Origin: Psammoneis japonica
Taxonomy: Eukaryota
Assembly (NCBI GenBank): GCA_008632985.1
Contig: QPGO01000187.1
Location: 62,001 to 126,000, forward strand
Direction: 5' to 3'
Length of the DNA stretch: 64,000 nt
Made by a program: the position numbers and the translations under genes. Under the pieces are notes generated by a model. That model ran no database searches. It was not told where the DNA came from and saw only the letters and a program-made list of their open reading frames with translations. Each line of letters opens with the position of its first letter. The first letter of the stretch is position 1. Below, one piece after another: positions 44,862-62,534 of this stretch.

Positions 44862-46564
44862 GGTTTACAATCTACTACAACGAGATGAAGAGTGAATGGG
44901 GCGTGTTGACGGCATTGCTGCGCTGCCAGGAGCGAGGAGCAACGGATTTTTCGAATTTTTCTCAAGGTCATTACAAAATTTGTCGTCGCATTATGCGAGC
45001 ATTGTCCTATTGCCCAACCCACAGCAGGGGCCATTTTTGTGACTTGGGCAGTGCCATTGGATGTCATTGCAGCTGCCCTGCCATGGAGGCTGCCAGCCGG
45101 AGAAACGCATGTTGTTGCGCTTCAGATTTTCAAACTCACGCAAGAAAGATCGCATGGGACCTTCAACTTGCGAAACTTCCCTCCGGCCAGGCCAGCACCA
45201 CCATGAAAAAGCAAGCGGGGGCCAGACGACGAGGACAACAACTCGACGTGGCTGTCAGACTTGGCAGAGAAACACGACAACGCACCAGAGAACAGTTTCC
45301 AGGCAGGGTGAACATCACACCACAATTGCTTTTTTGCAGAGGCTCAAAACGGAGCTCTCAAGCTCTGCCGATGTTCGAGAGCTGCTTCTTGGAGTCTGTC
45401 AGCACTGCAAGCCACCAGAGCAAGCTGCGAGCGTGCTCTTTCTTTTTGCCAACCTCGCGCACATTTGTGAGTGGAGAGCGAGCTTTGCACTGCCTCCCCT
45501 CTTGTGGATCTCATGCTCCTTGTTGATTGATGCCACAACTCTGCTGCAGCGCTGTGCGCAGGAGTGGGCAGGCAAAACAATGTCGCAGTGGCCTGGCAGT
45601 CTTTGTGATGCCCCTGTTTGTTGGCGCAGTCATCAGCTCTGTTGGGCGCTTTGGCTGTGGATGCAACATCCAGCATCTTGGCTGGAGCCCCTGGTTGATG
45701 ACCAACCCGGCACATTGTCAGTCAGTCAGCATGGGGAGCCCGCGCCAACTCAAGCCACAAAAGATGCAGCCGCCATGAGCAGATCCAAGATGATTGCTGA
45801 AACCAAAAACCTCAACAATGCTGCTGTCCCAGAAGGTGGCTTTGTGGCCAAGACATGGTCAAAATGTTTGACCGGGTCACTCTTTCAAAGTGAAGAGCTC
45901 TGTGAAGCACTTGGGGGTGCTGAAGTGATTTCCACAACAAGCCCAGTCAGAAACCTCAGGACAAGGAAGAGTCAAACTCCATCATCAAGAAGAAAGCAGA
46001 GACCTGTGTCTCAAATGCAAAGAAGAAGCACAAGGGAATGCAAAGAGGAGCTCAACCACTCCCATGATCAGCGCATCATCAACTCCACAACTCCAAAGAT
46101 GACTCCAAAGTGGACATCCGAGGAGGAGGCAAATGCAGTGCTGGTGGTTTCAATGCATTGGATGAGTGCACAAATGAAGGTCTGTCTGCCATCATGCTTG
46201 TGATGTGGGCCTGTCCCACAAACGAATTAAAAACATGAGAAACACCAGCTTCCACCAAGGCCTCCCCCTGTCATGCAAGAACAAGCTGACAAGACAACAA
46301 GCTCTGGGTTTTTTGGATCTTTGAAGAGATCCTTCAATCTGCTGATTGTCAATGGCTGCATTGTCCTTTCATTCTCCATTGTCAAATGCTTGTTTTGCCC
46401 CTGAGACATGAGAGGTGTGGAGCGCGGTTTTGAGGAAGAGCAAGACATGCCAAGCAGAGAGTCAAAAAACATTTGTGGGCTCAAACAACACTTGGATTTG
46501 CCAACCAGTCTCAGCTGCTTTTTCCTCAAAAGTCATCAATGCCAATTGCTTTTTGTGCTCAAAA

Positions 46565-47000
46565 TTGGCTGCTGGGCCAGTCCATGACTTCTCAACAAAG
46601 CTTTGACTCCAAAAAGTCAGCCACCCACTCTTGGCCATCACAGCCAACATTGTCATCTCCCTTGAGATCACTGTGCCATCACATGGAACAAAAATGTGTT
46701 CCAATGGAGTTGTTGTGCCATGAACGCCAATCTAGAAGGATTTTTGACAAGGCTGAAAATGACCATTGTTTGGGTCTTGGCTCACCTCGGTCGGGGGTCC
46801 CTTCACCCACATGCACTCACAGCGCTGGAGTTGCATGATGTGCATGTGGCTTGACAATGTCCAGAAGAAACTCTTGATGCACTTGAACAAAGAAAGCACA
46901 TTTTCCTGATGGCTGTGGTTGTTTGCACCAACAGAAAACAGAGACAATCACAAGGTGCAGAGCTGCTGTTGCTCTTCCAAGTTTTCCAGAAAGATGCTGT
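46565..47000 (-). pseudogene. Third, highly degenerate partial copy of the SGNH esterase gene
   Basis: Colinear with 55235-55700 (aaaagtcagccaccc, catggaacaaaaatgt, gggtcccct) and translates EHIFVPCDGTVIS. Confidence 0.75.
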
Positions 47001-47585
47001 TACATGAGGTGCAACAAAGGAGCAAAAGTCCTCCCAATTGGCAGTGACAAAAGAGGAATGATGTGCCCATGCTGTGGTGAATGACCCCATGCCGAGATGC
47101 TTGGGCTCAAGAGGGGATGGTTTGTGCACAAAATGCAGAAAAGCTTTGCTCTCAGTGCGCCACAAGAATGCCCATGGACCAGCATCTCCAGGCACCAATT
47201 TCATCTTTTTTTGTGGCTGCACTCTGATGATGACCCTCTCTGATCTAGAGCAGCAGTTGGCAGTTTGCCATTTGGTGGAAGCACGGTCAATTTCCCGTCT
47301 GCGTCGATGAGACAGATGGATGGACGTGATCGTGATCGTGACATCATGACTGGGCAAGGGCGCGATGAGCCCGCCCGCCTAAAACCAAAATGCTTCCCCC
47401 CCGGATTGGGTGACCGACTTCTGCCGGCATGCGTGGCAGGGACCATCTCAAGCAAGAGAAGGACGGAACGATCAGAAGGAAGGAAAGTTTGCGAGATGAA
47501 TGCAACACTGCAGCTGCTTGCGAACACGATAAACTGAAATTTGCAGTCTAGAGAGATGCAACGGCGACAATGGGACAGTGCAATG

Positions 47586-48025
47586 TGCAGCTGCTGACAA
47601 GAGCCAATGTGTCACGGCGACGTGTTACAGCCTTTAAATGTCACAAAGGGCGTGACAAAAATGACCTTTGTCTGCATGCACACTGCATTGTGAATTCACA
47701 ATGCAGCAGTTCATCGCAGCCATCAGGCAGGAGGCCAGGGGTTCGAAACCCTGAGTGGGAGTTGTCTGCAGCAACGTTGATCACTGTCGAACGCGTAAAA
47801 ACTCTGTGCAGTTCTGCATGTTCCTTCGCACGCACCCACACTGTTCCGCCAAAACCGTGCAGTGTCAGCACACGTCAGTGAAGAGCCGCATGGACGCGTG
47901 ACACATGGGGAGGAGTGCAGCACACAGCTGCCAACAAGAGCCAATGCACCACGGCGACGTGTTGCAGCCTTTGAATGTCACAAAGGGCGTGACAAAAACA
48001 ACCTTTTGTCTGCATGCACACTGCA
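47586..48025. repeat. Two ~100-bp direct repeats ~337 bp apart
   Basis: acaagagccaatg..cacggcgacgtgtt.cagccttt.aatgtcacaaagggcgtgacaaaaa..tttgtctgcatgcacactgca at ~47586-47687 and ~47923-48025. Confidence 0.85.
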
Positions 48026-48236
48026 ATGGCTGCAGTTCTGCACAATGGTTTGAGTTGTGTTGCGGCCTTTGTCGTTGGTCATCAGAATGCAAAGCAACAT
48101 TTGTCACGGTGATGTGAGCGTGTCTCTGCCACCGCACGACCATTCACAAGATGTGGAATGTGTTCCCCGAGCTGTCCCCTGGCAATCAAGTGGCACTGTG
48201 AACCTCAATGCAAGAGCCATGTGCCACACCAGGCGT

Positions 48237-49049
48237 TCATTCCACACAAGTGATTTCAACGCAACTCTTTCCAACATCACCCGCATCCAATCTGAACACC
48301 CCTTTCATTGAGATTTCTTGATCAATCAGTTCTGCAGTTTCCGGAACACCAGTGGTTTCCATGTTTTCAAGTTCAACTTCAGCAGAGATGAAGAATTTGT
48401 TTGCAAGCCAACCGGGGCAATCCAAGTGGCAATTGGCATGCCCACAGGTTCCAAACATCAATTCCCAGAAAGCTTGAGCCGCCTCTTCTGCCATTTCATA
48501 GAAGTTTTCAGGAGGTTGGTTGTTGTCCTTTTCTTCATGTGCAAGGCAGATGAAGAACCGGCAGTGCGGCTTGGTCATTTCTGTCAGATCATTCTTCTCG
48601 AACAACGAATTCTCGCGGGCCTCGTGCTTGAGCTTCTTCTTCCTCCCTTCAATTTCCTCATGATTGGCATTGTCACACATCGGAATTGATTTGTTCGGAA
48701 ATTCTCGGTTGAGCCACGCTTGTTCCAAGCGTGTGCACAAGTCGGTCACGGTGTCGTCGTTTTTGTCACAGGGTGCTTCCAGCCACTCAGCGTGACCCGT
48801 CAGCACCTTCATGTCAAAAGAGCAAGCCAGAAATGCAGCAGGGGACAAATTCTCTTCCTTCATGATTTGCGCACAGCCTTTGTACAGTTCATGACTTTCT
48901 GTCCTGCCAAAGTCGTCTTCTTTCTTGAGAACTGCTTGAACAACAGCATGCCAATGCTGCGTTGCAAGGACTTGCAGCCCACGCTGAACACCCTTGTCGA
49001 GTTGGTCAAAGGAAGTCATGGAAGGCTTGTTGTCAAAAGTGGCACTCAA
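48237..49049 (-). pseudogene. TpA-depleted ORF of unknown function
   Basis: 270-aa protein-like ORF with only 2 Tyr, inside a mutated domain. Confidence 0.35.
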
Positions 49050-49301
49050 GATGATGGCAAGGTGGGGAGGATGAAGAGACGCAGCACGCAGCGATCACAG
49101 CAATGCTGGATGCTTCACCGCTGCAACCTGCAACGCACGCAGAGCCTTCTTTCATTGTTTGTTTTCTTTTGTCATTTTTTGGCTTCACGCACAGACCGAC
49201 GGACAGATTGCATGACTGCTCGAAGCATGACATGCGTGAGCAGAAGAACAAATCATTGACCACTCAGTGGTTGGTGATTGCAGACTTTTTCGTGTCGGTC
49301 C

Positions 49302-49352
49302 GGCAGTCGGGCAGTGGGGCAGTGGGGCAGTGGGGCAGTCGGGCAGTCGGGT
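49302..49352. repeat. 8-bp tandem repeat GGCAGT(C/G)G x6
   Basis: ggcagtcg/ggcagtgg units seen directly. Confidence 0.85.
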
Positions 49353-51098
49353 TGTCCGTCTGAATTTGAAAGTGTGTCCCTTGGATTTTGAAAGGGCATG
49401 GGTTGTTTAGTGCAGATGAATTCTTCGGATTCTTGGAATTGTCATTGAGGACATGAGAGGTTGTGGGGACATCCTAAAAAATTGACAAATTCCCTGCGAC
49501 TGGTGCGTGGCACGGTTTTTCAGGAGAGCTCAAAAGTTCTGAAAAATTGGGATTGCCGGCGTGGCATGTTCAAAAATGTGCTCAGTTACACACAAAGACA
49601 ATTTGTCATGAATTCCACACGAAAAAGTCACATTGGGGAAAACACATCAAACTGCAAGTGAGTTTGTGTGATGCGCTGTTGTGGCGATAAATTGGAAAAA
49701 AAAGAGTGTCCGTGCACCTCGCTGCAGCCCCAAAAATGGCATGAGACATCAAATGTGACGGTCATCCGCGTCACCGGTGCGGTGGCCACGCCACTCAGCC
49801 ACCACAATGCCGGCCCCGACGCAGGGCCCTGCGCACGTACAGGCAATGCAGCATGCAACGGCACACATGCACCCACACCCACAAAGAAAGACAAGTGGTC
49901 AATGCTCCCTGCAGGCCTGGTTGTGTTCAATCCCATCTGAATCCCATGCTCTAGCTCTGTCTTTTTTCACCGCCCCCGCAGCTCTTCATGTGACTCAACT
50001 GCAATCCATTTCTGTGTCTCCCGGCCCCAATGCAACAGAACCACACAACTCCATTGGCCATTTGTTGGCAGCCAGTGACCAGTGCAAAACACAGAGCAAC
50101 AGTGGCTCCAGGCTGGCGAAGCACTCGGCGGCAGCTCTTCTTTTGCCTCACAAGCCACAATTGCTTTTTTGACAGAGCCTCAGATTTGAACTCTCAACCT
50201 CCACCCCACCACCACCACCACCAGCAGCTCTTGCCCCAGCAAGCACGGCCGCGCCAGCAGCGGAATCAACAAATGCCATGATGCAACAGGATCCAAGGTG
50301 CGCTGCAGCAACCGCACATCAAACATTCTCTCTGTGGAAACCTCCCTGGTCGGTGGTGTGCTGTCTGTTGGCAAAAAAATTTCAGCAGAGTTGAAAAGAT
50401 CAAAAATGTGAAAAACTTGCAAAGATTGCACAGCAGGCACAACTGCAGCAAAGATGCTCCCACAGAATGCACAAGCAACTGGGTGCTGTTTGTGTGGCAC
50501 ACCAATCATGAGCACATGCACTTGGAAATCACAACCATTCACTGAGGCAATCCTCCCAGCTCAGCATTGCTGGCTGTCCTGAGATCACAACAAAAGCTCG
50601 TGTGTGGCTGGAGCATGTGCTGCTTCCTCAGCAAGCACCCAGCACCGCTGCTCTTGTTTTGCTTCCAGCACCAGCTTTGCCAGTGCCAGGTGCAACCTGA
50701 GTCTTTGAATTCCTTGTCATTTTGACTTGCTCAATGGCCAACCAGCTGATTCTTCAGCAATTGCTGGTCAATTGACCTCTGTCATTCTCTGACTCTGCTC
50801 TTCACTGTTGGCTGATGATCCTGATTTTGAGCACTCTGGTTGGTTGTGGTGCAAGCCACTGGCACCAGACCTCAAGCCAGAGCTTGCAACTCAAGGAACC
50901 CAGAACTGGAGCTCTTGCCAGAGAGCCACAATGGGTGGGTGGTGTGGCTGCAAGCAAAAACTCACTCTCAACTCGTCAACATGCAGTGCAACATTGGTGA
51001 AAGAAAAGAGTGAGGTTGCCATGGCTTGTCAGGTGCTTGCAGCCATGAGTGCTGCTTCTGCAATGCACAAAGCACCTCAGAAGCAGCAACGCACAGCA

Positions 51099-51372
51099 CC
51101 CCCCCCCCCCCCCCCCCCCCCCCCCNNNNNNNNNNNNNNNNNNNNNNNNNNNNNNNNNNNNNNNNNNNNNNNNNNNNNNNNNNNNNNNNNNNNNNNNNNN
51201 NNNNNNNNNNNNNNNNNNNNNNNNNNNNNNNNNNNNNNNNNNNNNNNNNNNNNNNNNNNNNNNNNNNNNNNNNNNNNNNNNNNNNNNNNNNNNNNNNNNN
51301 NNNNNNNNNNNNNNNNNNNNNNNNNNNNNNNNNNNNNNNNNNNNNNNNNNNNNNNNNNNNNNNNNNNNNNNN
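51099..51372. other. Poly-C run followed by assembly gap (N, 51126-51372)
   Basis: Seen directly. Confidence 0.99.
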
Positions 51373-51610
51373 AGAACAATCTCTTTCTCTCTCCTCAAGA
51401 GATGCACGTGTGGCAACAGCACCTGGTCTTAAGATTGCCTGGTGCAGCAGAGAGAGAGGCAAGTTCTCATCATCCAAAAGCTCACCAATGCAAGAGGAAA
51501 CTAAAACCAAAGTCACTTTCTACAGCAAGTTAACTTCTGACAAAGTTGCAATGTTGCACATGGCACCACATGAGCAGACAACAATGTCCGCAGTTGTCTG
51601 GCAGTCATCA

Positions 51611-52001
51611 CAACAACTCCATTTGTTGGTGCAACCATCGGCTCTGTCGAACGCATCAGCTGTCAGGCCAGTCCATGATTTCACAAAGCTTTGGTTCTAA
51701 AAAGTCAGCCACCCTTTCTTGGCCAAGCTGGTTCTTGTGTCAACAACTCCATTCATTGGTGCAGCCATCATCTCTGTCAAACGCATGTCAGCTGTTGGGC
51801 CAGTCCATGATTTCACAAAGCTTTGGTTCTAAAAAGTCAGCCACCCGCTCTTGACCAAGCTGGTTCTTGTGTCAACAACTCCATTCGTTGGTGCAACCAT
51901 TGGCTCTGTCAAACGCATTTGCTGTTTGGCCAGTCCATGATTTCACAAAGCTTTGGTTCTAAAAAGTCAGCCACCTGCTCTTGACCAAGCCGGTTCTTGT
52001 G
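51611..52001. repeat. 3 x ~130-bp tandem amplification of the esterase pseudogene 3' end
   Basis: Unit caacaactccatt..ccagtccatgatttcacaaagctttggttctaaaaagtcagccacc..ggttcttgtg occurs three times. Confidence 0.9.
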
Positions 52002-53563
52002 GCTGTCACAACCAATGTCACCAAATCCCATCACAACCGGGCCGTTGCATGGAACAAAAATGTGTTCGGTCAGAATGGTTGCACCATGCGCAATCTGAAA
52101 GGATTTGACAGCATCTTGTGCATGTGGACAAGGTTGACAATGATCGTTGTTTGGATCTTGGCTCAGTTCCGCCGGGTCCCCTTGCCCACATGTGCTCGCA
52201 ATTGTTGGAAATTCATTGTTTGTAAATGGCTTGTGGCAATCTGCACAAGAAACTCTTGATGTGATTGAACAAAAGTCTCATTGGAAGGTGCCCCCTCTTG
52301 GTGGTTGCAATCATTTCCACCAAGAGAGACAATCACAAGGTGTGGTTGCCACTCCTCAAAGTTCCAAAAAGGCAGTGTCTTGGTCTGAAGGGTTCGGTTG
52401 CAATGACCCTGCATTGTTTTTTTGCCAAGCGCCACTGGCAAATTCGCAAATGCACTCTGCATCAGTCCAATGCCTAAAATGGCTTGGACGCTCACCTCAG
52501 CATTCAAACGTTTTCCCAAGATGCCAGGACATGCAGAGTTGCAATTGTTGCATTTCCAGGGTTGAGCAAGATGGCTGCATGTTTGCGGAGTGCCATCCAC
52601 ACAAAAGCCTGCCACATCACTGGCACCAACAAAACCAGCCCAGCATGCTGGCAGTGTTGGTGGAGTTGAAAGAGTTGCAACAGCGTCATCCATTTCCACT
52701 CCATGGAATTCAAGCACCGGCATGGCTGACTTGCCCAAACCGTTGCCACAGGGTGCACCGCTTTTGTGTCAGCAATTTTGTCAGCGCCGACGCGTTCCAG
52801 GTCTGGGTGGGACCTCGCACTGCTGAGCTGTGACGTCGACAGTTTTTTTAATCACGTTTGCATGTCGCACACACAGATTTCTGCTTGATTTTTTCGACAT
52901 TTTGTGTCATTTTACGGTGCAGTCATTGAGCGATCCGTCCAAAAACTTTTGACATTTTTTGTCACAGCGCGATTCTGTGACGTCTTGAGAATCGCGCAGG
53001 GCAGGCGCACTTGCAAAAACGTCGAGTGGTGAGAGGCACAATTGTGCCACAAACTTGGCCATCTGTTTGATGTTGAAAACAAACACATCCATCAATTAAA
53101 TTCTCGCACTGCGGAGCTCGCACGTAGAATTCTACGGGCCCAATGTCACAAGGAGTCCCACCTGGGGCTGGAGCACGTCCGCCAATGCCGCGGTGTGCAC
53201 CCTGGTGCCTTCAATTTGAGTGCCATGTTTGTCCTTCTCTGGCTGAAACAAATTTCCTTTCAGAATTGTTGTTTGCTCCAGTTTGCTGGTGACTGTGTTG
53301 GCTGCGACTGCATTGAGCCCGCACCCGATGAATTTTTGCTCGGAGGGCAAGGATGCCATCTCTTCTGCAGTCATGTTTGTGTTGAAGTGCACTCTGCTGC
53401 ATGGCCAGTCCAACCTGACAACACCATTGTCCTCAAGCTGTTGCCAGTGACCTGCAAAACTGAAGTTCTCTGCATTGTTTGCAGGACAAAAGGTTCCTTC
53501 AACAACAGCAGCGCTCAAGGCAACAACAAGACTTGCAACAGCACAAACAGTTGAAATCCTCAC
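51915..53563 (-). pseudogene. Full-length hypermutated copy of the SGNH esterase gene, interrupted by a MITE
   Basis: Colinear with 55232-56464, and its 3' flank (~51430-51650) matches ~55020-55230. ATG has become GTG and Tyr has become Cys/His throughout (GNDY to GNDC, WKYNN to WKCNN). Confidence 0.93.
52789..53179. mobile_element. 391-bp MITE
   Basis: Absent from the intact paralog. Imperfect ~25-bp TIR GACGYGYTCCAG..GGTGGGAC and 4-bp TSD CGCC (52785-52788 / 53180-53183). Confidence 0.85.
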
Positions 53564-53919
53564 AGCAACACGACGGCTGTAGCTTGAAAAGCAACAAGGT
53601 TGGTGCTGTCTGTTGGCAGTGACACCATAACCATGGGATGGTTTTTGTTCGATGTGCACAACTTTCGAACTTCAAAACTGCGACGGGCGTCGGGACGGCT
53701 GGGGGACGGACGTCAGTCCACGGGGATTGTCTTGTCAGTGTCTCGGGTGTGTGTTGGTCTTGATTCTGTGCCTCATTGCAGGCGTTGTCTGCCTTGCGGC
53801 TTGCGGCGCACAGAAGTTTTCAGTTTTTCGATAGCTACAGTAGCTAAGCATCTAGCATTGCATCAAGAATCAAGAAGAGTGGAAACAGATTGACGATTAT
53901 AAAACCATCATCATACACC

Positions 53920-54713
53920 ATGCCGACCTGCTACCGTTGTCAAGAAGAGCTTGGTTCGGCGGACTTTACTGCCTTTGAACTTAACAAAGTGGGAAAACGG
54001 TTGTGCAGAGGCTGCGTTGCGGAAAAGAGACCAGCACCCGCGGCTTGTCCGTGCAACAACCCGTTTTGTATCCACAAGGCAAACAAACCGAATGGTGAAC
54101 CGTGCTATCACTGTTACAACCATCAAGGCAACAAAAGTAAATTCATGTCCTACTCAATGTCAATGTCAAAATTGAACGAGGCTTGTGGCGAATTAGTTGG
54201 AACAAGCACCCAACTAAGCCCGCCGTAGATGCCGTGAATGCTTGTAAGGATCAAATTCCGATTACAAAAGATTTTGCGTGCTTTCTTTTTTCCACGGCGG
54301 TTGACGCCCTGGTGGACGGTGACCCCCAGTTGCCTCCGGAGAGGGCTCCGTTGTTGACGCAGTATGCGTTGGTGATTGAAAAACTTGCGGAAGAAGAGAC
54401 GGGCAGTCAGCCGAAGTTTTCCTCTGAAACGGACGCCTTGAAATATCGCTACAGAGAGGTTGCTCGCATTGACTGCGGCGATGATGTGGTTCCGTTTCTC
54501 GCTCGCCGCATCGATTGCCATTGCTTGGATGGGCGCAAGGCGTATTGTCCGGGCTGTCAAAAGGTGGTTTCTGCAAGAGTCATGAAAAAGTGCTCCGCCT
54601 GCAAAATCGCCCAATTTTGTTCCAAAGAATGCCAACGTGCTGCATGGAAGAGAAATCACAAGGTCGAGTGTAAAAAAATCAAGGGATTGGTGGATGCTGG
54701 CTTCTTGACTTGA
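53920..54713 (+). CDS. MYND zinc-finger protein with N-terminal CxxC..CxxC finger; 1-nt frameshift near 54200
   Basis: CPGC..KKCSACKIAQFCSKECQRAAWKRNHKVEC, preceded by FLARRIDCHCLD. Confidence 0.8.
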
Positions 54714-55231
54714 TCCGACTTTTGTTGGCGGAAAATCGCAGCACGTTCACACCATTCCAAAATATGCCAGTGCGTAACGAAACGTCAGTGTATTGCACAT
54801 TAGACATTGTCTATTATAACAGCTAAAACCTGTAAACTATCCAATACGACGTGTGTTGAACCTACTCACGGCAAGAGTGACTCTGTTGCGCACGACGCTG
54901 TCTTATGTCTTTCACCAAAGATTCTTATGGCAAAATAAGCGGTTGACGCTTTGCGACTTAGCTGACACTTAGGAGCCCAAAGCGATTGAAAAGTCACATC
55001 TGTGTAGCTACAGCTCATAATCTCGAGACTACACCGGTGCAGAAGAGAGAGGAAAGTTCTCATCACACAAGAGCTCACTAAGTCTGAAGGAAGAAGCTGA
55101 AATAATACGTCGCCCTTTGCAGCAAGTTAACTTCCGATAATGCCAAAATGCTGCCGTGGCACTACATGGGTAGGCTACGACAGTCATCGCAACACCTCCG
55201 CTCGTTGATGTAGCCATCGGCTCTGTCGAAC

Positions 55232-56464
55232 TTATTGGCTGTTGGGCCAGCCCATGATTTCACGAAGCTTTGGTTCCAAAAAGTCAGCCACCCGCTCTTG
55301 ACCAAGCCGGTTCTTGTGGCCGTCACAACCAATATCACCATCTCCCGACACAACCGTGCCGTCGCATGGAACAAAAATGTATTCGGTCGGAATGGTTGCA
55401 CCATGCATAGTCTGAAAGGATTCGACCGCGTATTGTATGTACGGACAAGGCCGACAACGATCATTGTTTGGATCTCGGCTCAGTTCCGTCGGGTCCCCTT
55501 GCCCACATATACTCACAATTGTTGGAATTTCATCGTTTGTATATGGTTCGGCAATCTGTAAAAGAAACTTTTGATATGCTTGAACAAAAGTCTCGTTGGA
55601 AGGTACCTCCTCTTGGTGGTTATAATCATTTCCACCAAGAGAAACAATCACAAGGTGTGGTCGCCACTCTTCAAAGTCCCAAAAAGGCAGCGTCTCTGTC
55701 TGAAGGGTTCGGTTGTAATAATCCTGTATTGTTTTTTCACCAAGCGCCACTGGCAAATTCGCAAACGCATTCTGCGTCAGTCCAATGCCTGATATGGCTT
55801 GGACGCTCACCTCGGCATTCAAACGTTTTCCCAAGACGCCAGGATATGCAGAGTCGCAATTGTTGTATTTCCAGGGTCGAACGAGATGGTCACATGCTTG
55901 CGGAGTACCATCCACACAAAAGCCTGCCGTATCACTGGCACCAATAAAACCAATCCGGTGTACCGGCAGTTTTGGTGGAAGCGAAAGAGTCGCGACATCG
56001 TCATCCATTTCTACTCCATAGAATTCAAGCACCGACGTGGCTGACTTGCCCAAACCATTGCCATAGGGTGCCGCTTGTGTCAATTTTGTCAGTGTGACGG
56101 TGTGCATTCCGGTGCCTTCAATTCGAATGCCGTATTTATCCTTCTCTGGCCGAAACGAATTACCTTTCAGAATCGTTGTTTGCTCCAGTTCGCCGGTGAC
56201 TGCGTTGGTGACGACTGCGTTGAGCCGCACCCGATGAAGTTTTACTCGGAGGGTAATGACGCCATCTTCTGCAGTCATGTTTATGTTGAATTGCACTCTG
56301 CTGCACGGCCAGTCCGACCTGACAACACCATCATCCTCAAGCTGTTGCCACCGGCCTGCAAAACTGAAATTCTCTATGTTGTTTGCAGGATAAAAGGTTC
56401 CTTCAACAGCAGCACTCAGGGCAACAACAAGACTTGTAACAGCACACACAGTTGAAATCCTCAT
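55232..56464 (-). CDS. Secreted SGNH/GDSL hydrolase, carbohydrate esterase CE2-like (410 aa)
   Basis: Signal peptide MRISTVCAVTSLVVALSAA, N-terminal FAGRW..DWP domain, and blocks IGFIGASDTAG, AISGIG, SLGGNDY, GCDGH. Confidence 0.88.
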   Translation of the reverse strand: MRISTVCAVTSLVVALSAAVEGTFYPANNIENFSFAGRWQQLEDDGVVRSDWPCSRVQFNINMTAEDGVITLRVKLHRVRLNAVVTNAVTGELEQTTILKGNSFRPEKDKYGIRIEGTGMHTVTLTKLTQAAPYGNGLGKSATSVLEFYGVEMDDDVATLSLPPKLPVHRIGFIGASDTAGFCVDGTPQACDHLVRPWKYNNCDSAYPGVLGKRLNAEVSVQAISGIGLTQNAFANLPVALGEKTIQDYYNRTLQTETLPFWDFEEWRPHLVIVSLGGNDYNHQEEVPSNETFVQAYQKFLLQIAEPYTNDEIPTIVSICGQGDPTELSRDPNNDRCRPCPYIQYAVESFQTMHGATIPTEYIFVPCDGTVVSGDGDIGCDGHKNRLGQERVADFLEPKLREIMGWPNSQ

Positions 56465-56752
56465 AGTAACACAACGACTAGTTCCTATCTTGAAGAGCAG
56501 AAATGTTGGCGGTGTATGTCTGTTGGTAACATCATGAGGATGGTTTGTGCGATGCACGCAACAACACAGCACCGTCCGCGAATTTTTATGAGTTATGTAT
56601 ATTTATATGAACACAACGGAAATTTTTGTCAATGGTGTTATGTAGTTTTTAACGGTTATCCGTTAAATTTAGTCTTGTTTGGCGAAGAACATAATACTGT
56701 TTATGCATTATTTATTCATGTGCCTTTCTATGTTTTGAGTCGTGAGGGCTGT

Positions 56753-56783
56753 TGATGACTTATGATGACTTATGATTACTTAT
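56753..56783. repeat. 10-bp minisatellite (TGATGACTTA)n, left part; continues at 62170-62262
   Basis: The same unit lies on both sides of the Gypsy element. Right-hand units mostly read TGATGACTTG or TGATGACTTT. Confidence 0.9.
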
Positions 56784-56945
56784 TGCAAGGTCTAACGAGA
56801 TAAAGACTTCAGTGATAACAAAATTGTGAGCGAAAGACCGAGGTAACGAGGGTCGCTTTCAGCGAAGCCCGTTACAACGGCTTCCGTTATATCTAATAGG
56901 TTCATTAATACTATATATCAGAAAAATAAGGTGCGAGACACTGCA
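56784..56945 (-). repeat. 3' LTR (TpA retained)
   Basis: 149/162 identical to 62008-62169 by hand alignment; adjoins the PPT. Confidence 0.95.
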
Positions 56946-56959
56946 CTCTTCCCTTCCAT

Positions 56960-58182
56960 GATTCGAGTGTCGAGAATCATGCGGGACTCAAAAAATTTAA
57001 ATTCCAATGGATGAGGATAGAAGGGAAACCCAAATGTTGGGGAGAAAACCCTTAACCTCAGGTATGATACGGTACGACGCGATGTATATTCAATCGTTCT
57101 GTCACATGAGGTGTACGTTGGACCGTAAGTGTGCCGTTGGCGTGTGCTTGAACGACAGGACATGGACCGTGAGCTCGTGGCTCGAGCTTGGTTGGGTCGA
57201 CAGCCTTGAGTAGAACTTGTCCGCCAACTTGAAAATCGTAGGATCAGCGTTTAGCGTTGGCTCGATGGAGATTCGCATTAACAATTGTTTGTCGGTGTTC
57301 TTGAATGGCAGCAAGATCGGCTGGGACCGGCAAGTCAAGAATCATGTCATGTTGAAAAACCACAGCACCGGGTGAAATCTTGAGAGCACGAGAAACCGCA
57401 CATCGCATTGCATGCATGGCAGTTGCCAATGCATTGTCCACTAGTTGATTGGCCTGCTCAACATTCTGTGGAGGACAAACATGAAGCAAAGTGCGCAAGA
57501 TGTTTCCAACAGTTTGATGCATGCGCTCGCGTGCCGCACTGGCTTGTGGATTTCGCGACGCAGTCGGAGCGTCTTCTACTCCTGCTCGTTGCAATGACAA
57601 TTGAAAGTCCTCTCCAATGAATTCTCCACCATTGTCATGGATGCACCGGTTGGGATGAGGATGACGAGACAACCAACAATTTTCAAATTGTTGAGCAATG
57701 TGAGACGAGGTTTTGTTGTCGATGCGAACAAGTTCAGTCACATTCGAAACGGCGTCAATACAAGTCAAAGCGTTGAATTCGATTTCATGGTTTTGAATTT
57801 CAATTTTCCAGGGACCGATGAGGTCAACCGCAACTTCCGTCCATGGTGATAAAGGCGCTTCCCGTTCAGGCAGGTCCCCATGTCCAGGGCCCAAAGTTTT
57901 CAAACGTTGACAATCAGCACAATGAAATCCTTCACAGGATTGACGAAGGGCAGGATGACAGAAATGTGCGCCAACAGTGGAATGCATTCGGTGCACTCCT
58001 GCATGTCCCAAAATCCCATGACACCATCGTATGATGTCGTGCAGCAACGCCGTTGGAACACAAATTTTCCACGCAGTCGGAGGATCATTCGGTCGAGCAC
58101 GACAACAAATTACAGGACGCTGATTCACATGTTCCACAACGAAGCGTTCTGGACATTGTTGTCGCACATTGTTCAGCTCCAC
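56960..58182 (-). pseudogene. Gypsy integrase
   Basis: H-x4-H..CADC zinc finger, VAVDLIGP, HDNGGEF and NPQASAARERMH. Confidence 0.9.
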
Positions 58183-58206
58183 GTCGACGAATTGGCATTC
58201 TTGAAT

Positions 58207-60540
58207 TCATTGCACAGTTGCAGGGTTTTGCATTTCCTCGAGAGAAGGACAGTTCAAAAATGATTCACACAATTCGGGGTCGTCCACGACAGAAGAATAA
58301 AATGGAGATGGTTCTTCACGACGACAGGAAAAATGAGACACACTGTTTTGGTCGTCCAGTTCTTCTTCATGCGGTGGCACAGCAGGGTCGATCGTCTTAA
58401 AATCAATCAGCTTGCCCTTGTCAGGAGCACACTTCCCTTCCGCAGGAGGGTCCACACGCGGCAATCTTGAAAAACAATCCGCCAAGAGACCATCTTTGCC
58501 ATCAACGCATTCGAAAGTTGGGGCAAAATCTTCCAAGAAGAGTCGCCACCTAAGAACTCGTTGAGAATTGAGCGCACGAAAGGTGAGATTTTTATGATCC
58601 GTAAAAACAGCACAGTCAGCTCCAAATGACATGCTTCGAAATTCTTTGAAACACATTGCCACCGCCAACAATTCTTTTTCAATCGTAGAGCAGTTCTGTT
58701 GTGCTGCGCTGAGTTTCCGGGACCAGTGAGCCACTGGTTTCCCGTCTTGCATAATTGCGGCTCCCATCTGACAGTCCGAAGAGTCAGCACAAATGTGGAA
58801 TGGTTTGTTGTGATCCGGGTGGACCCAAAGGGTGTCGTCCAGCATCAAGGTTTTCACATCTTCAAAGGCTCGTTGACATTCAGGGGTCCATTCCAACTTG
58901 CTCTTGCCTGTCAACTTTGTGAGTGGAGCGAGCACGTGTGAGCGACGAGGCCACATGTTGCGACAATAAGTTGCTGCACCGACAAACGATCGCAGTTGCG
59001 TCACAGTTTTAGGTGGTTGCATTCGTAGCACCGCTTCCACTTTCTTCTTCCACGGTCGGACTCCTGCAGGCATGAGCCAATGGCCTAAAAAATCCGTCTC
59101 TTGGACACACCATTCGCACTTGAGTGGGTTAATTTTCAGATTGTTCTCTTCTAGTCTGGATGACAGCTCATCGAGTCGACGCATGTGAGCATCAAACGAA
59201 TCATCAAATTGAGCAATGTCATCGATGTAAGTTTCAACATCGACTCCTTTTGCCACTTTTTCAATGATGGCTTGAGCAATGTCGGGAGAGGTTTTCAAAC
59301 CCATGGCCAATCGACAACATCGAAATTTTCCAAACGGAGTAACAACAGCACACAAATCCTTGGATTCTTCGTCAAGCTCGATGTGACAATAAAACACAGT
59401 GAGGTCCAACTTGGTCAAGTGCTTGCATCCCGAGCGTCGGTGAATAACGTCTTGAATGATCGGCAGAGGACAGACCTTTCGCTTGAGCACCTTGTTCAAC
59501 TCACGAAAATCGGATGCCCATTGAACTCGTCCATCCTTTTTGGGAGTTGCAAAAGTTCCGGCTGCCCATTCAGTTGGTCCCACTGGTTCCAGTGCGCCAA
59601 CATTACATGGATGTTGCAGTTCTTTCTTAAAAACGGCTTCATCCCTCTTGGACACTTCACAAGCCTTAGAATGGAAGGGAACAGCATTGGGATCAACTTC
59701 CAAGTGAACAGTCTCATGCGGACATTTGCCAAGCATTCCATCAAAGAGGGTTTCATGCTTTTCAAGCACTGCCTGTAGCTCATCACGTTGTTCTTGAGTT
59801 AAGTGAGTTTGAGCTTGCGCCACTTTCGCGGATGATGCTTTCTCGCACTTGGCGTCCATCACAAAAGATTGTCCGAAGGCTTCCTCATCGTCTTCGTCTT
59901 CTCCGTCGTTTTCCAGTGCATCCAACCAATTCTGAACTGAGTTCCAATGATTGGATTGCTTCATTGGGATCGACGTTTCCAACCACTTTGTTGTTCCAAA
60001 TCGAAAATCAAGCACGATTCCGGCTTTCGACAAAAAGTCTTGTCCCAAAATTAAATCATGCTTGCATGGGGCATCAAAAACTTGAGCCGCAATGCTGTCG
60101 ACTTGTTTTGACTTGTCAAATTCTGGCAATGTCAAGTCCTTCATAATGACGCATCGGGAGGATTCACATCGTCCGGCTGCCGTCTGAAAGCTCAACCGTC
60201 CTTCATCGTTCATGGTTGGATTCGCTCCCTTCGGCAAAACTCGAGAATGAACAAGAGTGTCAGCACCTCCTGAATCCAATGGCACTCGCAACACTCGCTC
60301 ACTCTCTTGATTTTGAATGGCACGCACCGCCATCAACGTCGTTGGCACCACATTCAATGGTTTGGGAGTCGCAGTTTTAGGGGTTGGCTCAGCGCACTCC
60401 AAAACGCCGCCCAATTTTTCTTCATTCACAGCATGAGATTCCATCAGGTCTCCCACATTGTCATCAACATTAAAACATGTGTTTTCTTCACGATCACACG
60501 AAACATAAAAAGATTGAGCGACACGCTCTGACTCGGGCAC
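58207..60540 (-). pseudogene. Gypsy pol: aspartic protease, RT, RNase H
   Basis: LDSG, DFRELN, TPFGKF..MGL, YIDD, FLGH, ADSSD, SRKL..EKELLA and FTDHKNL. Confidence 0.95.
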
Positions 60541-60552
60541 TTCCGTCCCTTG

Positions 60553-61774
60553 TCAATTACGCCAACTTCGTTGGCCTTGATGGGTGCGACCGTTCTGATC
60601 GCATCCATTTCCGCCTCGCATCTCACGAGGCCCTCCTTGATCAAAATGGTGCGACTCCATTTGCCAGCCACCAGGGGGAGCTGCTCCAGCCGGATTTCCA
60701 CAGCCTTGGGCATCACCGTTGGCTTGGGTGCCGTTTTGATTTTGGCAATAGGATCCATTCCCTTGAGAATTCTGGGAGTCATTGTAATTGCCGTAACCTC
60801 GGCCTCCACATCCTCCTTGATTGCCATGACTGCCACGTCCTCGACCTTGGAAGTTGCCACGACCTCCTCGACCTTGGGGTCCTCTGCCTTGGCAGTTTCC
60901 TCGGCCTCCACCACGACCTCCGCTACGACCGCCACGGTCGGACCTCGGTCGATGGTTTTGGCTTTCTGGATTCAAAATGCAATCCTTCCACTTGTGGTCA
61001 TGATTCGCATGCACCGGGCATCTAGATTCTGGATCCGTTCCACCACTGTTGCCACGAGAGCGTCTTGAAGCTTGAGACGAAGCACCATTGCTTTTCCTCT
61101 TCTTGTCCTGCTTCTTGTTGCTGCTCTTGTCAGCAAAAGATTTCTCATTGTTCGTGTGACTGATGATCTCAGCGAGAGCATCGTTTGCTGTCGCTCGTCC
61201 TGCTCGAGTGCACATCTCACGCCACGGACGAGGGAAGCTGTCGAATGTCATCTTTTTCTTCTGAGCTTCGTTGACTTGAGGAGCATTTCCCGGAAGTTTG
61301 TTGGAGTGCCGAATCAAGGTTTCCATGCGATCTGCATGCGCCCGCACTTCAGATTTGAATGGTTTTTTCAAAGTTGGCAAATGTTCAATCATCACATCAT
61401 GCGCTTCATCATCACAATAAGACAAGTAAAAACGATTGATTTCCTGATCAAAACGCTCGACAGTTTTATCGGCATCGTCAATTGCATTGGTCAAGTTCAC
61501 CCACTTGTCCTCTGCAGCATCCGCAAGCACTTCCTCGAAATTTTCGAACAACTCCTCGCCAGTGGTGCACTCCAATTTCACAGCAATTTTACGAAAACGA
61601 TCCTCAACGAACAACAATGCTTCAATGCCATGAGTGCCATCAAAACGCGGACACTTTTTTGTACGAGTGCTACCGTCATCATACGATTGGGTCAATTTCA
61701 CGTCCTCCAAGTCAGAATGCTCAAATTTAGCTTCACAGCCAATGCAAGGCTCCTTCAACGATTCACTCATCATG
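60553..61774 (-). pseudogene. Gypsy gag
   Basis: Open frame upstream of pol with CPVH..HKWKDC knuckle and RGG-rich tail. Confidence 0.85.
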
Positions 61775-62007
61775 AAAAAGGGAATGCAATTGTTCAACAG
61801 TCCTTTCCAGGGACTCCACCTTTGACTCCAAATGATGCACTCGGCTCGCCAAATTCTGTTCGTGTCGTTTACGTTGTTGCACTTGTTTCTGGTGCTCAAC
61901 AGCCCAAACTGCTGCTCCTGCGCGCAGTTCTCTTTTCTCACGTTTGGTCAATTTGTTTGCATTGTTCCCAGTCTCCACCCAGTTCTTTGAATCGACTGTA
62001 ATTACAG

Positions 62008-62169
62008 TGCAAGGTCTAACGAGATAAAGACTTCAGTGACAACAAAATTGTGAGTGAAAGACCAAGGCAACGAGGGTCGCTTTCAGCGAAGCCCGTTACA
62101 ACGGCTTCCGTTGTGTCTAATGGGTTCATTGGCACTACATGTCAGAAAAACAAGGTGCGAGACACTGCA
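62008..62169 (-). repeat. 5' LTR (TpA converted)
   Basis: Direct repeat of 56784-56945. Confidence 0.95.
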
Positions 62170-62534
62170 CTTGTGATGACTTATGATGACTTGGGATTGC
62201 TTGTGATGACTTGTGATGACTTTTGATGACTTTTGATGACTTGTGATGACTTGTGATGACTTCACTTAGGAAGTCGAGTGTGCGGTTCCCGTGCGAAGGA
62301 CAGCCAGCTGTCTGTCTGTGCAAAAATGTCATCAACACGAGAAGACGGAAAGGACGCGTTGATGTTGACTGGCATCAACTATGGCGTTCAAAACAACAAT
62401 CAGCAAAGCCATGAAAGTAAAACCATGATTACCACAATGAAGAATTCAACTACTTTAGGTGCTGCAAATGTGAGCGTGCGGCCAGAAGCACGCGCAATTG
62501 GGCAGTCTGAGGCATCGTCAACACAAGTTGCGAG

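What the first reader, a model, noticed from the sequence alone, without database searches (positions are those of the whole stretch)
51915..62169. Mutator prefers TAY on the mutated strand; YTAR sites tend to survive
At strand-discriminating sites in the LTR and esterase pairs, YTAY mostly becomes YTGY and RTAR mostly becomes RCAR (roughly 20 versus 4 by hand). The mutated A therefore sits in 5'-TAY. Residual TpA in saturated blocks is often CTAG, TTAA or CTAA, which has no TAY on either strand. Inference: this resembles the UAC/YAC preference of TadA-type deaminases more than a context-free bias.
Basis: partly seen in the sequence, partly recalled or inferred. Interest (0 to 1): 0.75.

Follow-up and report, generated by a model that had tools for sequence, protein, structure and literature searches.

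The report
Sequence fingerprint of diatom TpA mutator
In this diatom-like genome, silenced repeats have had most TA steps rewritten to TG or CA, and the neighbouring bases set how fast, which gives a fingerprint for the unknown enzyme behind a recently described form of genome defence.

Summary
In the window's duplicate pairs the TAY strand changed at 21 sites and the TAR strand at 6. Three retrotransposon families agree (93:30, 52:14, 75:14 sites; about 2.2:1 by events). In 200 kb taken elsewhere in the genome, relative TA survival is YTAR 0.32, mixed 0.085, RTAY 0.012. Pol eta is rejected: A>G at AA, CA and GA is about 100-fold below TA. The TadA likeness is only partial: CA is not a substrate, TadA's own TACG context has about half the best rate, and the rule spans six bases (best RRTAYY-like, worst TTTAAA), with the outer pair shielding both strands equally. 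There is no strand bias or strand clustering. Best reading: a distributive, post-insertion, domain-guided A:T>G:C mutator, probably an adenine deaminase; a lesion on the T is not excluded and no enzyme is identified. TpA hypermutation is in print for Bigelowiella natans (2026 preprint), with no flank rule in its main text. This scan has reported the TAY/YTAR rule several times on other DNA of the same genome.

The parts
51873..52756 (-). TA-erased duplicate of the 3' part of the esterase-like gene, at the end of a saturated block (about 45001-53600)
   Evidence: 86.7% identical to 55190-56071; 3 TA versus 30, 20 CG versus 50
53191..53636 (-). TA-erased duplicate of the 5' part of the esterase-like gene
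   Evidence: 83.4% identical to 56098-56543; 2 TA versus 15
51915..53600 (.). Nine surviving TA steps (51960, 52223, 52475, 52849, 52913, 53097, 53125, 53133, 53580); all nine have T at -3 or A at +2, none is RTAY or CTAG
54141..54713 (+). MYND-finger ORF in TA-normal DNA between the two duplicates
   Evidence: Pfam PF01753 E=3e-8; TA o/e 0.47
55232..56602 (-). Open, TA-rich GDSL-like esterase ORF (456 aa stop to stop); the spared partner of the duplication
   Evidence: PF13472 E=4e-5, below the curated cut-off
56784..56947 (-). LTR facing unique DNA; all 15 TA steps kept
56784..62171 (-). Ty3/gypsy-type LTR retrotransposon copy; 79 of 255 scored TA sites left, 73 TG, 100 CA, 3 other
   Evidence: RT, RNase H, integrase domains; about 20 further copies at 93-97% identity; states
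62008..62171 (-). LTR facing another TA-poor repeat; 10 of the 15 TA steps of its partner LTR changed
   Evidence: shows mutation after insertion

Best explanation
An enzyme-driven mutator acts on inserted, silenced DNA and turns TpA into TpG or CpA. Shown: it acts after insertion, one site at a time, on either strand with equal dose, needs T 5' of the A almost absolutely, and its rate depends on a six-base context (favoured: purine, A, TA, pyrimidine, not A; best TATC/TACC/TACT; worst TTTAAA; a CpG just 5' protects). It fades over a few hundred bases at element ends that face unique DNA, and its dose tracks CpG decay but runs more than ten times faster. Inferred: the chemistry is adenine deamination to hypoxanthine, copied as G; targeting follows CpG-methylated silent chromatin, not pairing of repeats; the +1 pyrimidine decides which A reacts, while the palindromic part reflects how the duplex around the TA step opens or is repaired. 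The enzyme is not identified.
For: Both TG and CA outcomes at 204 of 248 sites among 20 copies, copies mutated independently. A>G per 1000 A: TA 325 (all events), CA 3.2, AA 2.6, GA 2.0 (singletons). Same flank weights in three families. No strand clustering, |r|<=0.03 at all distances; strand bias 0.035+/-0.086. Terminal survival follows TA density of the flank, rho 0.61, 32 ends; only one partner of the esterase duplication is hit. TA dose versus CpG decay rho 0.69. Almost pure transitions. No alkyladenine glycosylase match while 4 of 14 controls rang. Mettrop 2026 shows de novo TpA-only A>G/T>C in another alga and proposes deamination.
Against: Sequence cannot tell a lesion on A from one on T; side products do not decide (A>T at TA sites 2.1x background, p=0.04; A>C 1.5x, not significant). 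No specialised deaminase was found: TadA with Asp at 108, an ordinary ADAT2, two A_deamin genes, a deaminase-dioxygenase fusion. BjADAT2, the natural DNA adenine deaminase cited by Mettrop, prefers GAA (PMC10354150, passages). EndoV is present. Methylation was not measured. The motif leaves large site-to-site variation unexplained (residual SD 2.5).
Confidence: 0.55

Rival explanations
1. The lesion is on the thymine of 5'-RTA (for example enzymatic oxidation to a base that pairs with G), giving T>C; TAY is only its mirror image.
For: Formally identical pattern; a duplex base-flipping oxidase would fit the palindromic part. A deaminase-2OG-Fe(II) dioxygenase fusion exists in the genome.
Against: No TET/JBP match, but no control rang, so uninformative. 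The fusion's domains look like small-molecule enzymes (inference). A>C at TA sites is not raised significantly.
Confidence: 0.15
2. A two-step route: a methyltransferase marks adenine in palindromic TA contexts of silent DNA, and the marked A is then deaminated or miscopied.
For: Quasi-palindromic RRTAYY preference (correlation of the two sides r=0.65) is what a duplex-reading methyltransferase could give.
Against: No MT-A70 match, control silent; ApT-type 6mA (recalled) is excluded because TAC is as hot as TAT and AAT/CAT/GAT are cold. Rates are graded, not all-or-none.
Confidence: 0.1
3. An error-prone Y-family polymerase (Pol eta or iota type) fills repair patches started at methylated CpG and inserts G opposite T.
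For: TA dose tracks CpG decay across copies (rho 0.69); AAY is slightly above other non-TA contexts (4.3 per 1000).
Against: AA is about 100-fold below TA and no higher than CA, against a WA signature (recalled); no strand-coordinated patches within 10-25 bp; sites next to CpG mutate less, not more.
Confidence: 0.08
4. An ADAR/ADAT1-fold enzyme edits DNA in RNA:DNA hybrids at silenced repeats.
For: Two A_deamin genes; the second has close relatives across diatoms; ADAR domains deaminate dA in hybrids with 5' T best (PMC5389660, passages); duplex action fits the symmetric term.
Against: ADAR's best site was TAG and AAG was also well edited in that paper; here TAG is slow and AAG is background. 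No strand bias relative to transcription. This is one possible identity within the best explanation, not a separate chemistry.
Confidence: 0.07
5. Editing during retrotransposition (RNA or first-strand cDNA), selection, or reversed polarity (fungal RIP creating TA in the other copy).
For: Most affected DNA is retroelement-derived.
Against: The two LTRs of one copy differ at TA sites, both strands are hit in each copy, a non-retro gene duplicate is hit; 80 of 80 related elements from metagenomes have TA o/e 0.45-1.08, so TA-rich is ancestral.
Confidence: 0.02

Closest known systems
TpA hypermutation of integrated viral DNA in Bigelowiella natans (Mettrop et al., bioRxiv 10.64898/2026.01.13.699255)
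   Same: A>G/T>C confined to TpA, both strands, regional, TpA-poor and CpA/TpG-rich clusters that include transposon domains; enzyme unknown, deamination proposed.
   Different: Here a diatom-like stramenopile, near saturation over roughly 40% of sampled tiles, multi-copy retroelements and a gene duplicate, coupled to CpG decay. The flank rule is absent from the preprint's main text (0 hits for flanking, context, trinucleotide); its Fig. 2B motif and Table S2 were not visible to me.
TadA and TadA-derived adenine base editors (ABE3.1, ABE8e, ABE8e-YA)
   Same: A>G, 5' T favoured (ABE8e genome-wide off-targets at TA; PMC13225742), YAY>YAR in ABE8e-YA (PMC12528748).
   Different: ABEs accept either pyrimidine 5' of A; here CA is about 1% of TA. 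TACG is not the hotspot. Palindromic outer-flank effect. Wild-type TadA edits tRNA.
Amphioxus BjADAT2/3 (PMC10354150)
   Same: Natural deaminase that edits adenine in DNA.
   Different: Prefers GAA for adenine, also edits TCG, favours hairpin loops; here GA is background, TC is not specially hit and hairpin score does not predict rate.
Fungal repeat-induced point mutation (RIP)
   Same: Repeat-focused, dinucleotide-specific transition hypermutation that ruins transposons.
   Different: Opposite direction (RIP makes TpA from CpA; recalled). One partner of a close duplication is spared and LTR ends are often spared, unlike pairing-triggered RIP (recalled).
Pol eta WA signature (recalled)
   Same: A>G at TA.
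   Different: No AA component and no strand-coordinated patches.

Membership tests
B. natans-type TpA hypermutation | A:T>G:C transitions restricted to TpA on both strands | tested here: met
B. natans-type TpA hypermutation | Regional, aimed at foreign or repeated DNA, genes spared | tested here: met
B. natans-type TpA hypermutation | Ongoing de novo mutation about 1000-fold above background | not testable with these tools
   needs mutation-accumulation lines; one search gave only contigs of one sample
B. natans-type TpA hypermutation | Same flank weights and same enzyme | not testable with these tools
   preprint supplement closed; enzyme unknown in both
TadA/ABE-type deamination | 3' pyrimidine preferred (YAY>YAR) | tested here: met
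TadA/ABE-type deamination | Either pyrimidine accepted 5' of A (YA) | tested here: not met
   CA 3.2 versus TA 325 per 1000
TadA/ABE-type deamination | UACG/TACG as best context (recalled) | tested here: not met
   TACG 0.47 of best, effect 0.27+/-0.11 versus 1.0 for TATC/TACC/TACT
TadA/ABE-type deamination | A DNA-competent TadA-fold enzyme in the genome | tested here: inconclusive
   TadA has Asp at 108; ADAT2 has Asn, as ADAT2 orthologues generally do (PMC10354150); family search not exhaustive
TadA/ABE-type deamination | Hypoxanthine intermediate | not testable with these tools
   needs biochemistry
Pol eta (WA) | AA>AG excess alongside TA>TG | tested here: not met
ADAR-type editing | 3' G preferred (TAG best) | tested here: not met
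   +1 G 0.41 of +1 C
Fungal RIP | C:G>T:A at CpA | tested here: not met
   non-CpG C>T 1.6 per 1000
Fungal RIP | Both partners of a duplication mutated | tested here: not met
   esterase pair and LTR pair

The most novel reading that the evidence does not exclude
The diatom encodes a natural adenine deaminase that works on double-stranded chromosomal DNA with a strict 5'-T rule (an adenine counterpart of duplex cytosine deaminases), recruited to methylated silent chromatin as a dedicated genome defence, and shared in kind with a rhizarian alga. The palindromic outer-flank effect and the lack of strand clustering are its trace.
Probability: 0.2. Interest if true: 0.92.

Novelty: new member of a known kind. 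Interest (0 to 1): 0.62.

Why it matters
TpA hypermutation is known from one preprint, with no enzyme. A quantitative six-base fingerprint, the same in three element families, makes two questions testable at once: whether the diatom and B. natans processes are the same (score the preprint's 231 mutations against these weights) and which candidate enzyme is responsible (its spectrum must give T-only at -1, TAY>TAR, cold TTTAAA, unremarkable TACG). It also removes Pol eta, ADAR-like and plain TadA-like signatures as simple explanations. A natural duplex-DNA adenine deaminase would matter for genome-defence biology and for base editing. The process also biases dating and annotation of diatom repeats: it removes tyrosine and stop codons and creates long spurious ORFs.

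Tried and rejected
Hairpin-loop targeting: stem score does not predict residual rate (rho 0.01). Repair patches at CpG: nearest-CpG distance goes the wrong way. Processive or single-strand bursts: no strand clustering. Telling A from T lesion by transversions: inconclusive. TA>CG is rare (11 events) but says only that CA/TG products are not substrates. Family searches for TET/JBP, MT-A70 and DddA-like domains found nothing with silent controls: no evidence either way. Two DNA searches for a second family from the window gave few full-length copies, so copia families were used. First metagenome scan found nothing; the second gave 80 related elements, none TA-erased, and none of 120 related pol proteins was tyrosine-poor, but both lists favour best-scoring, intact or collapsed copies and cannot show that other species lack the process. 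Sequencing runs: no RNA holder listed; contigs of one sample gave a truncated difference table of no use for context. PMC13101598 passages held nothing on ABE context. Not fetched: the 72-79% identity Ty3 group; 10 of the 20 copies (other subfamilies, gappy) were left out.
Full report
Setting. The window alternates between TA-normal genic DNA (TpA o/e about 0.4-0.8) and kilobase blocks with o/e 0.0-0.2 and raised CpA/TpG. It lies in a 91-Mb eukaryotic assembly. Named relatives of its proteins are diatoms, so I infer a diatom. The finding covers a duplicated esterase-like gene and a Ty3-type retrotransposon.

Observation at the coordinates. Over 59 alignable TA sites of the three pairs, RTAR went to CA 15 times and TG 4 times; YTAY went to TG 6 times and CA twice: 21 v 6, p=0.006. 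Only 3 TA steps are present in the TA-poor partners alone. In blocks picked by eye, survivors are YTAR/mixed/RTAY 52/40/5 against 154/510/268 in normal DNA. YTAY and RTAR are the two strands of one site class. Inside 51915-53600 nine TA survive, none CTAG, all with T at -3 or A at +2.

Larger samples. (a) Twenty arbitrary 10-kb stretches, 500-bp tiles classed by their neighbours only (129 depleted, 149 normal): survivors 144/116/9 versus 518/1577/892; relative survival 0.32, 0.085, 0.012; TTAA 0.52, ATAC/GTAT 0.01; p=8e-50; A at +2 is enriched twofold among survivors and TTTAAA is the commonest survivor. (b) Ty3 family: I fetched the 20 other copies at 93-97% identity. One real copy still rich in TA served as baseline for 19 others plus the window copy. 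Of 255 TA sites, 7 possibly private to the baseline were dropped. Survival: YTAR 0.55, YTAY 0.31, RTAR 0.28, RTAY 0.13. TAY-strand versus TAR-strand events 1245 v 558; by site 93 v 30 of 134 (11 ties), p=1e-8; 204 of 248 sites show both outcomes. Pairwise sharing is close to chance (mean z -0.14, SD 1.17), so copies were hit independently. (c) Two copia families (20 of 20 copies; 10 of 20): 622 v 277 and 447 v 209 events; 52 v 14 of 75 and 75 v 14 of 103 sites. Here sites were called from column states, so sites converted the same way in every copy are missed.

The full motif. A competing-risk model (each A has its own hazard, each copy its own dose) on 532 sites, 50 copies and 8499 observations gives log effects: +1 T 0.60, C 0.53, G -0.41, A -0.72; +2 C 0.44, A -0.57; -2 A 0.52; -3 A 0.35, G 0.22, T -0.49; bootstrap SD 0.04-0.08; little beyond -4/+3. 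By 3' dinucleotide, TATC, TACC and TACT are best, TACG 0.47, TACA 0.40, TAGA 0.13, TAAA 0.05; CG, TT, TC or TG just 5' of the TA protect, CG most. Splitting into a palindromic and a strand-choosing part, the outer pair (-3/+2) is almost wholly palindromic, the inner pair mixed. Model-free, in the Ty3 family: with T at -3 or A at +2, survival rises from 0.12 to 0.39 or 0.46 while the TG:CA ratio stays 0.8-0.9; the copia families show the same rise. An enzyme reading one strand could have such a motif by coincidence, so this favours but does not prove a duplex-level step. Residual site variation is large (SD 2.5).

After filtering, A>G per site is TA 0.55, AA 0.008, CA 0.008, GA 0.008 (the TA figure is conditional on unchanged neighbours). 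Across three families, non-TA singletons per 1000 are CA 3.2, AA 2.6, GA 2.0, against 325 for all TA events; CpG C>T 15, other C>T 1.6. There is no WA signature and no YA signature. A weak NAY>NAR trend outside TA (AAY 4.3, AAR 1.2) may be spill-over.

How it acts. After insertion: the LTRs of one copy differ. On both strands equally (0.035+/-0.086), without strand runs at any distance. In domains: terminal 200 bp survive when the flank is TA-normal (rho 0.61, 32 ends), and the open esterase gene 3.3 kb from its ruined twin is spared. Dose per copy (0.8-1.8 hits per TA) tracks CpG decay (0.03-0.07 per C; rho 0.69). In diatoms DNMT5 methylates transposons (PMC9998398, passages), so I infer that silent methylated chromatin defines the target; methylation was not measured. 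Direction: related elements from metagenomes have normal TA (80 of 80).

Candidates. Family searches of the own genome, not exhaustive, found a bacterial-type TadA with an N-terminal extension and Asp at the D108 position, an ADAT2 with the usual Asn, tandem dCMP deaminases, RibD, another nucleoside-deaminase-like gene, a deaminase fused to a 2OG-Fe(II) dioxygenase, and two A_deamin genes, the second conserved across diatoms. All lie in TA-normal DNA where checked. EndoV is present; no alkyladenine glycosylase matched while controls rang. TET/JBP, MT-A70 and DddA-like searches were blank with silent controls. None is shown to be the mutator.

Literature seen. Mettrop et al. bioRxiv 10.64898/2026.01.13.699255: parts 1-3 of 5 (abstract to conclusion) and term search; figures and supplements not seen, and they may hold a flank motif. 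Passages only: PMC12528748, PMC13225742, PMC10354150, PMC5389660, bioRxiv 10.64898/2026.07.20.739671 (all ABEs prefer a pyrimidine at -1), PMC9998398, PMC13101598. Searches for a diatom TpA mutator or its flank rule listed no such paper; the library lacks most subscription journals. Recalled, from no call: TadA's UACG substrate, the Pol eta WA hotspot, RIP's direction and pairing trigger, ApT-type 6mA, duplex cytosine deaminases.

Earlier notes of this scan report the same TAY/YTAR rule on other pieces of this genome and led me to the preprint; I tested the rule independently. In the few lines shown they do not mention the outer-flank symmetry, the cold TACG/CGTA contexts or the edge effect.

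Verdict. It works like a deaminase-type, T-anchored A>G mutator guided by silent domains; it fails membership tests for plain TadA/ABE, ADAR, Pol eta and RIP signatures, and is best filed as a second lineage of the B. natans-type TpA hypermutation with a newly measured six-base fingerprint.

Noticed in passing
L025 (G000:C79:87006-90176), minus strand: A zinc-dependent deaminase domain fused to a DIOX_N/2OG-Fe(II) oxygenase in one 491-aa frame; probably nucleobase salvage, not examined further.
   Followed up: partly
L057 (G000:C79:343058-346324): A second A_deamin (ADAT1/ADAR-fold) gene with close relatives in centric and pennate diatoms; role unknown.
   Followed up: partly
L023 (G000:C38:5868-9179): Bacterial-type TadA with a hydrophobic N-terminal extension, possibly organelle-targeted.
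   Followed up: partly
G000, whole genome search: No alkyladenine DNA glycosylase (PF02245) match although controls rang; could let hypoxanthine persist.
   Followed up: no
window:56756-56783 and 62172-62262: A 10-bp tandem repeat (TGATGACTT-like) flanks the Ty3 copy on both sides, as if the element inserted into this array.
   Followed up: no
window:51611-52001: Three tandem copies of a 130-bp piece of the esterase duplicate; older, more diverged pieces at 46564-46891.
   Followed up: no
L003/L016 (G000:C42:61143-73581): Two Ty3 copies lie head to head in inverted orientation.
   Followed up: no
window:58207-60552: Because all tyrosine codons are TAY, the mutated pol frame has 0.64% Tyr and 4.0% Cys against 2.6-4.9% Tyr in 120 relatives; Tyr loss can flag hit proteins.
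   Followed up: partly
one search list (C37, C244, C44, C21, C90, C16, C322): A copia family with near-identical scores and 1400-aa open frames, perhaps very young; its TA state was not checked.
   Followed up: no
L021/L022 (C41 and C317): Tandem dCMP-deaminase gene present identically on two contigs (allele or duplication).
   Followed up: no
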